The notes below the pieces were generated by a model. That model saw only the letters and a program-made list of their open reading frames with translations. It was not told where the DNA came from and searched no databases. The translations under genes were made by a program, and so were the position numbers. From the human T2T-CHM13v2.0 reference genome, Homo sapiens: a stretch of DNA of 64,000 nucleotides. The stretch lies in the NCBI RefSeq assembly GCF_009914755.1, contig NC_060943.1; one strand, 5' to 3'. Shown here in pieces: positions 2,780 to 46,035 of the stretch; position 1 is the stretch's first letter, and each line of letters starts with the position of its first letter.

Positions 2780-2917
2780 TACAGTTCCCCTTCCTCCCTC
2801 CAGGGGGCGCCATGGAACGCAGGGCCCTCACTGGCCCTGGGGACTGGGTGACGTCAGGGGTGAGCCTCTGGTGATTGGCTCCCTCACCCTGCGTAAGATC
2901 AAAGGGCCTAAAGGTCA
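2780..2917 (+). promoter_or_regulatory. Upstream motif cassette of snaR (CTCF, CRE, CCAAT, TCF/LEF, NBRE); present in every unit
   Basis: TACAGTTCC (2780-2788) plus CCTCCAGGGGGCGC (2797-2810) for CTCF; TGACGTCA (2849-2856); TGATTGGCT (2872-2880); AGATCAAAGGG (2896-2906); AAAGGTCA (2910-2917). Other copies start at 8162, 13552, 18945, 24331, 29717, 35108, 40502 and 45888. These are motif matches only; binding is not shown. Confidence 0.7.
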
Positions 2918-2927
2918 GCCCCGACAC

Positions 2928-3046
2928 CCGGAGCCATTGTGGCTCCGGCCGGTTGCGCGGGCCCTCGGACCCTCAGAGAGGCGAGGGTTCGAGGGCACGA
3001 GTTCGAGGCCAACCTGGTCCACATGGGTTGAAAAAAAAATTTTTTT
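2928..3046 (+). ncRNA. SNAR-C: snaR (small NF90/ILF3-associated RNA), B/C type, Pol III; copy 1
   Basis: Reads CCGGAGCCATTGTGGCTCCGGCCGG...GAGTTCGAGGCCAACCTGGTCCACATGGGTTG-A9-T7. Has an A-box-like TGGCTCCGGCCGG (2940-2952), a B box AGTTCGAGGCC (3000-3010) and an oligo-T terminator (3040-3046). Matches the recalled snaR family sequence; the subtype call is from memory and gene numbers cannot be assigned. Confidence 0.92.
3040..3046 (+). terminator. Pol III oligo(dT) terminator of snaR (T7, in every unit)
   Basis: First run of 4 or more T after the B box, directly following A9. Confidence 0.85.
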
Positions 3047-40649: not shown

Positions 40650-40768
40650 CCGGAGCCATTGTGGCTCCGGCCGGTTGCGCGGGCCCTCGGACCCTCAGAG
40701 AGGCGAGGGTTCGAGGGCACGAGTTCGAGGCCAACCTGGTCCACATGGGTTGAAAAAAAAATTTTTTT
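40650..40768 (+). ncRNA. SNAR-C: snaR B/C type, copy 8
   Basis: Identical to copy 1 by eye. Confidence 0.92.
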
Positions 40769-43700
40769 ATCGTTCCCAATATAACAACAAAACATAAAGG
40801 GAGGACGCCTTGATAGGAAGAAATGACATCTTCCTAAGTGTTTTCAAATTACTTCAATGTATCTTTCTTTTTTTTTTTTTTTTTGGGAGACCGAGGCTTG
40901 CTCTGTTGCCCAGGCTGGAGTGCAGTGGTGTGATCTTGGCTCACTGCAACCTCTGCCTCGTCGGTTCAAGGGAGTCTCCTATCTCAGCCTCCTGAGTAGC
41001 TGGGATTACAGTCGCCTGCCAAGAGATGGGGATTCGCCATGTTGACCAGGCTGGTCTTGAACACCTGGCCTCAAATGATCCACTCGCCTTGGTCTCCCAA
41101 AGTGGTAGGATGACAGGCGTGAGCCACCGCGCCCAGCCTCTTCTATTCTTTTAGAGACAGCGTCTCACTCTGTTGCCCAGGCTGGAGTGCATTGATGTGA
41201 TGTGTGATCATAGCTCATTGCAGCCCTGACCATCCGAGCTCAAGCAATCCTTCTGCCTCAGCCTCCTGAGTAGCTGGGGCCGCAGATGTGCACCACTGCA
41301 CCTGGCTAATTTTTAACATTTTTTGTGGAGCCAGAGTCTGTATAAAATAAAGTGTAAATAGTACCATAAATAAAGAATACATAGTACCATTTTATAGTAG
41401 TATAAAACGGACATTAGAAACTCTGGACTTAAAGTTTAAAAAAATACACAAAAGTAGTTCTCAAGTTCTAGAGACTTGGAGAATCCAGGAATCAACAATG
41501 TCGTGGAACTCCTACAGCCTTTCATAAAGAATGGCCCTCGAGGAAAGTGGAATTGTCAGTGGGCATTGTGTTCGTGCCTCAGCTAAACACGGCAGGAATT
41601 TATTTATAACCTAGTGTAACATCCTCGAGGCACTGTTCAATTAGTCAAGCAATTGTAAAATTCTCCCAGTCTTAGAAAAGATACAGGTGTGTGTCCCTCT
41701 GCTGTGGCTGTGCACTGACGCTTCAGTAAAAGTTGCCGTCTAAAACCACCGGCCTGCCCTTGAATTGTTTTGTTTTGTTTTGTTTTGTTTTGTTTTGTTT
41801 TTTTGATTCGCAGCCTCACTCTATCACCCAGGCTGGAGTGCAGTGACACGATCTCTGTTCACTGCAACCTCCGCCTCCCGGGTTCAAGCGATTCCCCTGC
41901 CTCAGCCTCCTGAACAGCTGGGATTACAGGCACCCGTCCCCATGCCCGGGTAATTTTTGTATATTTAGTAGAGATGGGGTTTCACCATGTTGGCCAGGCT
42001 GGTCTCGAACTCCTTACCTCAAGTGATCCATCCGCCTCAGCCTCCCAAAGTGCTGGGATTACAGGCGTGAGCCACTGCGCCCGGCTTCTTGAATTAGTTT
42101 CTAGGAGAAGCCAAGAACCCCCCCGGGCTAAGCCTCAATTTTGGGGCTCGCCTGTGCTGCATCAGCTTCACACCTAGAGAAGAGAGTGAAAGAGAAGGGA
42201 GAGCCGTCCTTTTGGGCTGCCTTGAAATAAAGGTTGACCCATGGGTTCATGTATTGTCATTCATTCTCATTTTCTCTTCCTCTCTTTCTCTCTCTCCCCT
42301 GCCCCTTAAGTTAGCTTTTCTACACCCTACCTGGATAAGGATAAGAAATAGAAGGAGGGGACACTTTAGGATGCTACAAAATAAAATACAACAACAACAA
42401 CAATAACAGCAGCAGCAACAACAACAACAGCAACAAAAGGGGAAGAAACAAATCTGGCCACTGCACATTCCTCCTTGGCAACAAAAAGCCGTGGATGCAA
42501 AAAGCTGCCCTTCACTGCATAGACAGAACAGGGCGCGCTCGAGCTATGAATCTCGGAAATTACTCAAACCATCAGCCTCTGCAAGAAGCAAAGTGGACGG
42601 CCGGGCGCGGTGGCTCACTCCTGGAATCCCAGCACTTTGGGAGCCCGAGGTGGGCGGATCACGAGGTCAGGAGATCGAGACTGTTCTGGCTAAACCAGTG
42701 AAACCCCCTCTCTACTAAAAAAATAACAAAAGCGAAGTGCATCTCCCATAAACGAGGTACTGCAGGAAGAAAGCAGAAAATGAGACCCGAGTACACACAT
42801 GCACGCGGGCGTGCGCACACACACACCAGAAGAAATGAACCAAGAGGAAAGGAAATATTTTCAAGTAAGCATTTGGAGATGGGAAAAACACCTTGAAACA
42901 GAAATTCATAAAGTACACACATGTTTTTTTTTTAAGTTAAAAGAGGAACAATAATAAACAGGCAGAAAATGAATAAAAAATAAAATGTCATATCAGAAGT
43001 GAAGATAAATTAAAAGTGGTCAAAGGAGAAGAGATCTAAATGCAAACTTAAGAAGGGGCAATTTTTTTTTTTTTTTTTTTTTGAGACGCAGCCTCACTCT
43101 GTCGCCCGGGCTGGAGTGCAGTGGCGTGATCTTGGCTCACTGAAACCTCTGCCTCCTGGATTCAAGCGATTCTCCTGCCTCAGCCTCCCAAGTGGCTGGG
43201 ATTACAGGCATGAGCCACCATGCCCGGCCTAGAGTCATCATGGAAATTAAACAACCTGCTTCCAAATGACTTTTGGGTAAAGACTGAAATTAAGGCAGAA
43301 ATAAAAAAATTATTTGAAACTAATGAAAACAAACATACAACATCCCAGAATCTCTGGGACACAGCTACAACAGTGCTCAGAGGAAGTTTCTAGTGCTATA
43401 TGGCTACATTAAGAAGCTAGAAAGATCTCAAATGAACCGCCTAACATCACACCTAGAGGAATTAGAAAAACAAGAGCAAATCAACCCCAAAGCTAGCAGA
43501 AGAAAAAAAAAAAAACAAAATCAGAGCTGAGCTGAATGAAATTGAGATGTAAAATACCATACAAAAGATCAATGAAACCCAAAGTTGATTTTTTAAAAAA
43601 ATTATTTATTTATTATTTATTCCATAAATTATTGGGGTACAGGTGGTATGTGGTTACATAAGCTCTTTAGTGGTGATTTGTGATTTTGGTGCACCCATCA

Positions 43701-46035
43701 CCTGAGCAGTATACACTACCCCCTATTTGTTGTCTTTTATCCCTCGCCCTCGCCAACTCGTCCCCCTAAGTCCCCAAAGTCCATTGTATCATTCTTATGC
43801 CTTTGTGTCCTCATAGCTTAGGTCCCACATATCAGTGAGAACATACGATGTTTGGTTTTCCATTCCTGAGTTACTTCACTTAGAATAATACTCTCCGGTC
43901 TCATCCAGGTCACTGCAAATGCTGTTAATTCATACAAAGTTGATATTTTTGGAAGCATAAATAACATGGAAAGACCACTAGCTAGATTAATAAAGAAAAA
44001 AAGACAAGATCCAAATAAACACAATCAGAAATGACAGAGGTGACATTACCACTGACCCACAGACATACAAGAAACCCTGAGACTATTCCACATGCCTCTA
44101 TGCACAAAAACTAGAAAACTAGAAGAAATAGATAAATTCCTGGAAACATAAAACCTCTCAAGATTGAACCAGGAAGAAATGGAAACCCTGAACAAACCAA
44201 CGATGAGTTCCAAAATTGAGTTAGTCATACAAGACCTACCAACCAGCGCAAAAAACCTTAGACTAGACGGATTCACAGTCGAATTCTACCAGATGTGTAA
44301 AGAAAAGCCGGCACCAATCCTACTGAAATTATTCCACACAATTGAGGAGGAGCAACTGCTCTCTAACTCATTCTATGAGGTCAGAGTCATTCTGATACCG
44401 AAACCTGGCAGAGACACAACGAAAAAAGGAAAATAGGTAAAGTAATACATATGTTAATGATCTTGATTTAGCCATTCTACGGTATATACATATTTCAAAA
44501 CAATATGTACATGATAAATATGTACAATTTGTCAATTAAAAATATATAAAAGGAAGAGGAAAAAATTCAAATGGCGTAGAATTTGAAAGGAGAAGATACA
44601 GAACAAACTCCAGTGTCTTCTTTATTCAACTATATATACACACGTTCAATGGACCGGGAGCAGTGGCTCAAGCCTGTAATCACAGCACTTTGGGAGGTCA
44701 AGGCGGGCAGATCACCTGAGGTCGGGAGTTCGAGACCAGCCTGACCAACAGAGAGAAACCCCAGCTCTACTAAAAATACAAAATTAGCCGGGCATGGTGA
44801 CGCATGCCTGTAATCCCAGCTACTCGGGAGGGTGAGGCAGGAGAATCGCTTGAACTCAAGAGGTGGAGGTTGTGGTGAGCCGAGATGGCACCATTGCACT
44901 CCAGCCTGGGCAACAAGAGCGAAACTCAGTCTCAAAAAAAAAAAAAAAAAAAAAAAAAAAAGGATTTAATGAATGAATGATGAGACCGTTGGTGACATCT
45001 CCCACCTTCTCCCTCTCACTCCACTGCAGCCACACGGGGCTCCTCACTGTTCCCGTAGCAGCAGGCATGTGCCCCCACAGGGCCTCTGTACTGGCTGTTC
45101 CCACTGCCCGAACACCCTCATGCACCATCTGCACTGTCCAATACGGCCGCCTCTGGCCACACATGGCTACTGAGCAGTTGAACATGGCTGGTCCAAACCA
45201 AGATTTCCAAGACGTCGTGTGGTAAAAAAAACAACATAAAATTTTGCAAAAATGTTTCTATTGATTATGTTAAAATTATGATGTTTTAGGTATATTAGGT
45301 TAAATCAGCTATTTTATCAAAATGAATCTCGCCTGTTTGTTTTTGCTTTTTTTTTTTTTTTTTTTTTGAGATGGAGTCTCGCTCTGTCGCCCAGGCTAGA
45401 GTACAATGGCGTGGTCTCAGCTCACTGCATCACTGCAACCTCTACCTCCCAGGTTCAAGCGATTCTCCTACCTCACCCTCCCAAGTGGCTGGGATTACAG
45501 GCGTGTGCCACCACACCCAGCTAATTTTTGTATTTTTGTAGAGACAGGGTTTCACCATGTTGGCCAGGCTGGTCTCGAACTGCTGACCTCGTGATCTACC
45601 TGCCTCGGCCTCCCAAAGTCCTGGGATTACAGGTGTGGGCCACTGCGCCGGCCATGTTTCTCAACTTCTGCTGGCAAGCATGTTCCAGTATTTGCATGGC
45701 TCCTAGCCCTCATCTCCATTTCTCTGCACAGATGTTATCTTCCCCATGAGGTCTGCCTTATACATGAGGCGTGTATTATAAAGTGCAACTGCCAATTCGC
45801 CAACCCCGTTGTTTCTTCTCTCCAGAACACTAGGCACCATCTGATCTCCTATGCCTTTTCCTTATTGTCAGATACTGAACTCTCAGATACAGTTCCCCTT
45901 CCTCCCTCCAGGGGGCGCCATGGAACGCAGGGCCCTCACTGGCCCTGGGGACTGGGTGACGTCAGGGGTGAGCCTCTGGTGATTGGCTCCCTCACCCTGC
46001 GTAAGATCAAAGGGCCTAAAGGTCAGCCCCGACAC

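What the first reader, a model, noticed from the sequence alone, without database searches (positions are those of the whole stretch)
2780..45918. Nine same-orientation extended CTCF sites at 5.39-kb spacing: a candidate copy-number-variable insulator
Seen: CCTCCAGGGGGCGC (2797-2810) is preceded, 8 nt upstream, by TACAGTTCC, in every unit and always on the + strand, about 120 bp before a Pol III B-box gene. Known: the CTCF core is CCASYAGRKGGCRS, zinc fingers 9-11 read an upstream TGCAGTNCC-like motif at about this spacing, and TFIIIC-bound B boxes and tandem CTCF arrays (for example DXZ4) can act as boundaries. Inference: the array could be a directional loop-extrusion barrier whose strength scales with unit number. 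The CpG in the core could make it methylation-sensitive.
Basis: partly seen in the sequence, partly recalled or inferred. Interest (0 to 1): 0.7.

Follow-up and report, generated by a model that had tools for sequence, protein, structure and literature searches.

The report
Ape-born CTCF array in snaR macrosatellite
Every repeat of a known, length-variable human gene array carries the same strong predicted docking site for the genome-folding protein CTCF; the site likely arose by point mutation in African apes, and two such arrays point at each other across 2 Mb, so they would be a young chromatin barrier if binding, still untested, is confirmed.

Summary
The site looks real: 21.1 bits, an upstream motif at the calibrated spacing, and its 14-mer occurs 76 times outside snaR loci against 3 for the reversed control.

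Two things I did not find in the papers searched. (1) Orangutan and both sister repeats at the parent locus lack the near-invariant core G, while gorilla has it. The site therefore likely arose on the African-ape stem and was then copied about 75 times. (2) A second array holds 30 opposite-facing copies 2.14 Mb away, a convergent pair.

Pooled copy number is already shown to vary, 32-95. Best reading: a CTCF site at the upstream edge of each snaR promoter, summing to a likely one-way barrier.

The parts
1..50013 (+). Last ~9.3 units of the 40-unit snaR A/C (MER33) 5.39-kb macrosatellite; it continues about 168 kb to the left of the window
   Evidence: self-BLAST 99.4-100%; genome scans; PMC2588610 Table 2 passage
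2780..2810 (+). Extended CTCF motif, unit 1: upstream motif 2780-2788, 8-nt spacer, core 2797-2810
8162..8192 (+). Extended CTCF motif, unit 2
13552..13582 (+). Extended CTCF motif, unit 3
18945..18975 (+). Extended CTCF motif, unit 4
24331..24361 (+). Extended CTCF motif, unit 5
29717..29747 (+). Extended CTCF motif, unit 6
35108..35138 (+). Extended CTCF motif, unit 7
40502..40532 (+). Extended CTCF motif, unit 8 (before SNAR-C3)
45888..45918 (+). Extended CTCF motif, unit 9 (before SNAR-C1), last of the array
2762..2779 (.). Duplicon junction (same in each unit): donor sequence ends near 2761, about 10 bp of filler, parent-derived Core begins at 2772, 8 bp before the upstream motif
   Evidence: single-copy donor at C19:50,192,852, probably the DHX34 fragment of PMC3045588 (inferred from distance)
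2849..2856 (+). CRE consensus TGACGTCA (label recalled), 9 of 9 window units; broken in human snaR-A units
2873..2880 (-). Inverted CCAAT box (label recalled), 9 of 9 window units; broken in the three gorilla snaR-A clones
2928..3046 (+). snaR-C-type Pol III gene, B box 3001-3009, oligo-A/oligo-T end; identical copies start at 8310, 13700, 19093, 24479, 29865, 35256, 40650, 46036
   Evidence: Rfam RF02556
4877..5136 (+). Probable Ya5-lm, a second Alu-left-monomer Pol III unit per repeat (9 starts in window); end taken from the published ~260 nt
   Evidence: identified by position against PMC4333407 passages
2551..2569 (-). Weak reverse CTCF-like core (12.6 bits) 243 bp upstream of the strong site, in 8 of 9 units; would make a divergent pair
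53687..53705 (+). Single CTCF-like core (19.2 bits, no upstream motif seen) in the flank between the array and BSPH1, same orientation

Best explanation
Each 5.4-kb unit of the snaR macrosatellite carries one extended CTCF motif 148-118 bp upstream of its Pol III gene; the motif likely arose by point mutation in the African-ape ancestor, was copied with the gene, and likely binds CTCF in open units, where it would mark the upstream edge of the snaR promoter and, summed over many units, would act as a one-way cohesin barrier facing BSPH1. Shown: motif, position, orientation, 40 + 30 array copies, presence in all five dispersed snaR duplicons examined, absence of the key base in orangutan and in the two sister repeats. 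Inferred: zinc fingers 3-7 on the core and 9-11 on the upstream motif; phased nucleosomes keeping the CRE/CCAAT/TFIIIB-loading region open against the Alu/L1-rich rest of the unit; occupancy that follows the chromatin state of the unit rather than methylation of the core CpG; a barrier that is largely saturated, so that copy number changes it little.
For: Core scores 21.1 bits (relative 0.92, p about 7e-8, above 63% of matrix-sampled sites) on a recalled JASPAR MA0139.1 matrix. Matrix-free calibration: the exact 14-mer occurs 150 times, 74 at snaR loci and 76 elsewhere, against 3 for the reversed control; the orangutan-state 14-mer occurs 5 times against 4. Upstream-motif spacing is specific: consensus pattern 26 matches at 8-9 nt, 0 at 10-14 nt, 0 reversed; T3 variant 4 non-snaR matches at 8-9 nt, 0 at 11-12 nt. 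Sites with the upstream motif are a 13-15% subset typical of tested insulators (PMC12885311 passages). Origin: orangutan genome and both clone subsets have A at core position 7, outside the primer; 3 of 3 gorilla clones shown have G (PMC3045588 Figs S2, S11 and primer); sister repeats score -6.1 and 4.5 bits and share the A; rep3 is the outgroup (121 private sites against 28 and 28). The core is intact in 74 of 75 genomic copies, while the CRE and CCAAT box are lost in some lineages. Duplicon 5' edges fall 8, 14, 63 and 183 bp upstream of the motif, never inside it. [quoted passage not shown]
Against: No CTCF or cohesin occupancy, footprint or contact map was found for this locus (searches). 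The motif departs from consensus at core position 3 (T) and upstream position 2 (A). Conservation excess among snaR paralogues is not significant: 2 of 31 variable columns against 26 of 117 (p=0.07), or 10 of 72 in the adjacent stretch (p=0.34); array copies are homogenised and not independent. Two of five human clones in Fig S11 have one G fewer in the core run (not seen in this genome, possibly artefact). ATAC signal over SNAR-A +/-150 bp, which includes the motif, falls on differentiation (PMC9151912 passages), which is not what a dominant constitutive site would give. CpG o/e in the 200 bp upstream of the gene is only 0.3. The origin rests on one outgroup species and two paralogues; macaque was not seen.
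Confidence: 0.55

Rival explanations
1. Passenger motif: a good sequence match that was copied only because it sits beside the gene. Most units are closed or heterochromatic in somatic cells, few are bound, and there is no measurable barrier.
For: One site copied; conservation test not significant; accessibility depends on POLR3G and cell state; in lymphoblastoid lines the 16 listed methylation correlations for this array are 127 kb or more away, of mixed sign, pooled |R| up to 0.28 (30 of 56 rows seen); Pan has about 0.1 times the human copy number, so the arrays are dispensable.
Against: Word enrichment and spacing calibration; two derived changes both toward consensus; duplicon edges spare the site.
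Confidence: 0.27
2. Convergent super-anchor pair: 40 forward sites at 50.74-50.95 Mb and 30 reverse sites at 53.09-53.23 Mb face each other and anchor stripes or a 2.14-Mb loop around the domain containing the LHB/CGB cluster, in the manner of Pcdh/Igh tandem arrays or DXZ4 superloops, with strength depending on copy number.
For: Orientation and counts; tandem convergent arrays work this way at Pcdh (PMC7087399 abstract and passages); pooled copy number correlates with VRK3, which lies between the arrays on the side array 2 faces (R=0.28 all, 0.43 YRI).
Against: The inversion is explained by inverted duplication (PMC3045588 Fig S10 legend), and an inverted copy is convergent or divergent with even odds; 2.1 Mb of gene-dense DNA should hold many stopping sites (general knowledge); the VRK3 signal is weak and the best YRI tag SNP lies within 200 bp of the VRK3 start, so linkage may explain it; saturation.
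Confidence: 0.12
3. The site mainly serves BORIS/CTCFL or acts as an activator in testis and cancer cells, opening the snaR promoter without anchoring loops.
For: snaR is testis- and cell-line-enriched (PMC3045588 results); CTCFL keeps the relevant finger residues; the site sits in a promoter-like CRE/CCAAT cassette.
Against: No data found; POLR3G already explains much of the expression pattern.
Confidence: 0.06

Closest known systems
snaR A/C and A/B/D clusters = MER33 5.4-kb macrosatellites, 19q13.32-33 (PMC3045588, PMC3337139, PMC2588610, PMC4063668)
   Same: This is that array: unit length, snaR gene, inverted pair of clusters, copy-number variation (32-95 pooled).
   Different: The CTCF motif, its recent origin and the convergent orientation of the sites were not found in the parts read or in the searches; the parts read give 10 units per array (hg18), this assembly has 40 and 30.
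DXZ4 macrosatellite (PMC5687341 passages; PMC3491370 and PMC3218863 search listings only)
   Same: kb-scale tandem unit, variable copy number, CTCF motif repeated with the unit, internal promoter.
   Different: DXZ4 has shown CTCF binding, enhancer blocking and superloops on the inactive X, and the mouse homolog keeps CTCF binding; this site is autosomal, untested and absent even in orangutan.
Tandem convergent CTCF arrays at Pcdh and Igh (PMC7087399)
   Same: One forward site per repeated promoter, facing a distal reverse array.
   Different: There the sites are diverged, old and choose among Pol II promoters for an enhancer; here they are identical copies before Pol III genes and the partner array is 2.14 Mb away.
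CTCF beside active Pol III genes and TFIIIC sites (PMC3896398, PMC4333407 passages); nc886, rDNA spacer promoter, TAR1 repeats (recalled)
   Same: CTCF site just upstream of a Pol III or repeat-borne promoter.
   Different: Those are class correlations or other loci; here a fixed extended motif is built into a 75-copy family.

Membership tests
snaR/MER33 macrosatellite | 5.4-kb tandem unit with one snaR gene at 19q13.32 | tested here: met
Extended (upstream-motif) CTCF site | High-scoring core | tested here: met
   13 of 14 consensus positions; 21.1 bits on recalled matrix; word enrichment 76 against 3
Extended (upstream-motif) CTCF site | Upstream motif at the finger-8 spacer distance | tested here: met
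   8-nt gap; genome calibration 26 against 0; counts are lower bounds and 15 of the 26 are two subtelomeric repeat runs
Extended (upstream-motif) CTCF site | CTCF occupancy in vivo or in vitro | not testable with these tools
   no ChIP, footprint or EMSA data reachable
Extended (upstream-motif) CTCF site | Purifying selection on the motif | tested here: inconclusive
   2 of 31 against 26 of 117 variable columns, p=0.07
DXZ4-type CTCF macrosatellite insulator | Copy-number-variable tandem array with one oriented motif per unit | tested here: met
   (probe pools both arrays; per-array variation not separated)
DXZ4-type CTCF macrosatellite insulator | Enhancer blocking, boundary or long-range loop | not testable with these tools
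   no contact data
DXZ4-type CTCF macrosatellite insulator | CTCF site conserved across primates or mammals | tested here: not met
   orangutan orthologue lacks core G7; arrays near absent in Pan
Methylation-switched CTCF site (H19 type) | CpG at core position 2 | tested here: not met
   position 2-3 is CpT; only CpG is C12-G13; PMC10484683 passage
TFIIIC/Pol III gene boundary | B box with TFIIIC and Pol III occupancy | tested here: met
   B box 9 of 9; published multi-mapped ChIP, not per copy
TFIIIC/Pol III gene boundary | Barrier activity | not testable with these tools
   none

The most novel reading that the evidence does not exclude
Two point mutations in the African-ape ancestor created an extended CTCF site beside the nascent snaR gene; duplication multiplied it into two facing arrays of 40 and 30 sites that now act as human- and gorilla-specific, length-polymorphic super-anchors bracketing a 2.14-Mb domain of 19q13.33, including the LHB/CGB cluster, whose CGB1/CGB2 promoters carry two more copies; chimpanzees, which nearly lack the arrays, would fold this region differently.
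Probability: 0.13. Interest if true: 0.88.

Novelty: new member of a known kind. Interest (0 to 1): 0.55.

Why it matters
If bound, this is a rare case of a CTCF site whose birth can be dated and whose amplification into tandem arrays can be followed, in a region that short-read ChIP and Hi-C pipelines discard. It comes with a natural experiment: array copy number relative to human is about 2.6-3.0 in gorilla and 0.10-0.12 in chimpanzee and bonobo, and it varies threefold among people. That makes testable whether tandem CTCF dosage changes insulation in natural genomes, and offers a candidate cis element for the conserved upstream flank that Parrott et al. guessed controls snaR expression, a cancer-associated Pol III RNA. 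If unbound, it is a motif riding along in a known array.

Tried and rejected
Shuffle significance as evidence: rejected, the units are copies. Methylation switch by the core CpG: rejected on position. Selection test among paralogues: inconclusive. Published CTCF data at snaR: ten literature searches; 17 papers hold both words, of which I opened two (PMC4333407, PMC3896398) and found only class-level CTCF/Pol III remarks; the other 15 were judged from the listing. PMC9151912 supplements: 0 hits for CTCF in the 2 files searched, one of them cut and one further file unreadable. The Hoyt T2T repeat preprint and the 354-haplotype Hi-C preprint do not name snaR in their main text; their supplements were not seen and may bear on novelty. 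PMC4238955 supplements were listed only. Macaque and New World monkey orthologues are in a PMC3045588 supplementary file that could not be searched. Copy number against local methylation: no nearby effect in the rows seen. One search did not reach the donor of the upstream flank; one search did. Three primary CTCF structure look-ups were not held; PMC10484683 was used instead. No protein, structure or microbial tools were used, as none bears on the question.
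Full report
OBSERVATION. The 14-mer is present nine times, all on +, with the 9-mer 8 nt upstream each time and spacings of 5382-5394. Each core ends 118 bp before an Rfam snaR match. The nine genes are identical over 125 nt and of the C type by comparison with Fig S1 of PMC3045588; the annotation supplied names only two of them. Whole units are 99.4-100% identical, so the finding is one site, copied.

WHAT THE ARRAY IS. 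An exact genome scan for the extended motif gave 73 matches, 0 for the reversed control: 40 on + at C19:50,738,429-50,947,918, 29 on - at C19:53,091,039-53,221,435, and singles at C19:52.03 and 53.69 Mb, C2 and C3. Up to 3 mismatches adds two: a 30th unit of the second array with one core change, and a second copy at 52.03 Mb whose upstream motif is the full consensus. An independent flank pattern confirmed 40 and 30 units. These are the snaR A/C and A/B/D clusters and, by position, snaR-G, -F, -H and -I (PMC3045588: parts 2-4 of 8, passages, supplementary figures; PMC3337139: part 1 of 3), listed as MER33 5.4-kb arrays of 10 units in hg18 (PMC2588610 passages). The window holds the last nine units; homology ends at 50013. 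The two arrays face each other across 2,143,120 bp. Each unit reads: weak reverse core, junction, extended CTCF motif, CRE, inverted CCAAT, snaR gene with B box, and 1.8 kb later a probable Ya5-lm Pol III unit.

IS IT A CTCF SITE? Without a matrix: the exact core word occurs 150 times, 74 at snaR loci, 76 elsewhere, against 3 reversed (the first 100 were listed, and some non-snaR hits look like duplications, so independent cases are fewer). The consensus upstream-plus-core pattern gave 26 matches at 8-9 nt, none at 10-14 nt and none reversed; the T3 variant gave 4 non-snaR matches at 8-9 nt and none at 11-12 nt. A relaxed pattern gave 129 matches, 74 of them snaR-family, and shows the same upstream 9-mer at two unrelated sites (100 listed). 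The tool warns that counts are lower bounds. Upstream-motif sites are read by fingers 9-11 and are typical of tested insulators (passages of PMC10484683 and PMC12885311). Binding here is inferred, not shown.

ORIGIN. The parent locus has three 1.9-kb repeats. Only the snaR-bearing one has the motif; the other two score -6.1 and 4.5 bits and share A at core position 7 and G in the upstream motif. Over 1284 aligned columns, repeat 3 has 121 private sites against 28 and 28, so it is the outgroup and the shared states are ancestral. Fig S2 of PMC3045588 shows the same A in the orangutan genome and in both clone subsets, three bases beyond the primer's end, and the same G in the genomic upstream motif; the three gorilla clones of Fig S11 have the human core. 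That one base costs 7.7 bits, and the orangutan word is not enriched in the genome (5 against 4). By parsimony the site was completed on the African-ape stem, where snaR itself arose, before all duplications. By eye it accounts for two of about five human-lineage changes in some 145 bp upstream of the gene, which is suggestive only. The gorilla upstream motif is hidden under the primer; macaque data were in a file that could not be searched. Duplicon 5' edges lie 8 (arrays), 14 (I), 63 (H) and 183 (G) bp upstream of the motif, and an older 17-bit core 366 bp upstream in the parent was left behind. This is a post hoc pattern and the duplicons share ancestry.

SELECTION. Among snaR-bearing paralogues fetched (17 distinct segments aligned plus one edge unit added by hand; the two sister repeats and one hybrid were left out), 2 of 31 motif columns vary against 26 of 117 in the rest of the upstream region (p=0.07) and 10 of 72 next to it (p=0.34). 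Not significant. The CRE is broken in human snaR-A units and the CCAAT box in gorilla snaR-A clones while the core stays.

COPY NUMBER. The SNAR-A1 probe of PMC4063668 lies in this unit (10 places in the window). Its tables give mean 59, range 32-95 diploid, CV 0.19 in 165 people, both arrays pooled; gorilla 2.97 and 2.61, chimpanzee 0.12, bonobo 0.10, macaque and gibbon about 0 relative to human (rows seen). Seventy units in this haploid assembly is above that range, so either calibration or allele length differs. Reported correlates are weak: VRK3 expression (R=0.28; 0.43 in YRI), with the best YRI tag SNP at the VRK3 start; methylation rows for this array lie 127 kb or more away with mixed sign (30 of 56 rows seen). 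The neighbours faced by the array may not be expressed in lymphoblastoid lines, so this is a weak negative.

MECHANISM. Most likely (0.55) CTCF binds open units as the upstream edge of the snaR promoter and the array is, as a by-product, a one-way barrier facing BSPH1. The CpG is at C12, tolerant in vitro, so control would come through chromatin state; accessibility over SNAR-A +/-150 bp tracks POLR3G and falls on differentiation (PMC9151912 passages). With independent blocking p per unit, pass-through is 10% at 8 units for p=0.25 and 43% for p=0.1, so graded scaling needs sparse occupancy. Rivals: passenger motif (0.27), convergent super-anchors (0.12), CTCFL-driven activation (0.06).

COMPARISON AND NOVELTY. 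It is a member of the snaR/MER33 arrays and, by sequence, of extended CTCF sites. It may work like DXZ4 or Pcdh/Igh arrays but fails the conservation feature of DXZ4 and the C2 feature of H19-type switches. Ten searches of the held library found no report of CTCF at snaR; subscription papers, browser tracks and preprint supplements were not visible, so the occupancy may be known from public tracks. PMC12424700, PMC5687341, PMC7087399, PMC13692088 and 10.1101/2021.07.12.451456 were read as passages (PMC7087399 also abstract); PMC4238955 only as a listing. Labels CRE, CCAAT, MER33-like, TAR1, nc886 and rDNA are recalled.

VERDICT. Real feature, known array, new member of a known kind. Interest 0.55: the datable birth of the site, the 40-against-30 convergent layout and the ape and human copy-number series make a clean test, but function is unshown.

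Noticed in passing
window 2928-35370: Seven snaR-C-type genes identical to SNAR-C3/C1 have no row in the supplied annotation; the array has 40 units, most apparently unannotated.
   Followed up: partly
L031:4291, 6180, 8050 (C19 about 53.693-53.697 Mb): Each of the three old 1.9-kb repeats at the snaR-F parent locus carries another forward CTCF-like core (about 17 bits), kept in all three, with a CRE about 90 bp upstream; an older small tandem set.
   Followed up: partly
L037 about 5040-5080 (C19:53,091,039, - strand): The edge of the second array is a hybrid: array-type flank and intact motif, then a switch 10-20 bp after the core into a copy of parent repeat 3 with no snaR gene; looks like a homologous recombination junction.
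   Followed up: partly
L041 about 3156 and L035 about 6685 (C19:52.03 Mb): The two snaR-G copies, which the literature places in the CGB1/CGB2 promoters, carry the motif in opposite orientations 5 kb apart; one has the full-consensus upstream motif.
   Followed up: partly
window 2754-2786: An 8-mer at the junction is repeated just upstream of the Core edge, suggesting a templated insertion at the breakpoint.
   Followed up: no
C19:53,098,000-53,141,000: The second array mixes 5.35-kb and 3.06-kb units in a partly periodic pattern; short units keep the motif, raising site density.
   Followed up: no
C9:150,391,621-150,392,380 and C18:250,690-251,205: The consensus pattern also found 61-bp-period runs of extended motifs near chromosome ends (recalled as TAR1 subtelomeric CTCF repeats), a positive control.
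   Followed up: no
window 53687-53705: Single 19.2-bit forward CTCF-like core in mappable flank 3.7 kb past the array; any boundary seen here must be separated from this site.
   Followed up: partly
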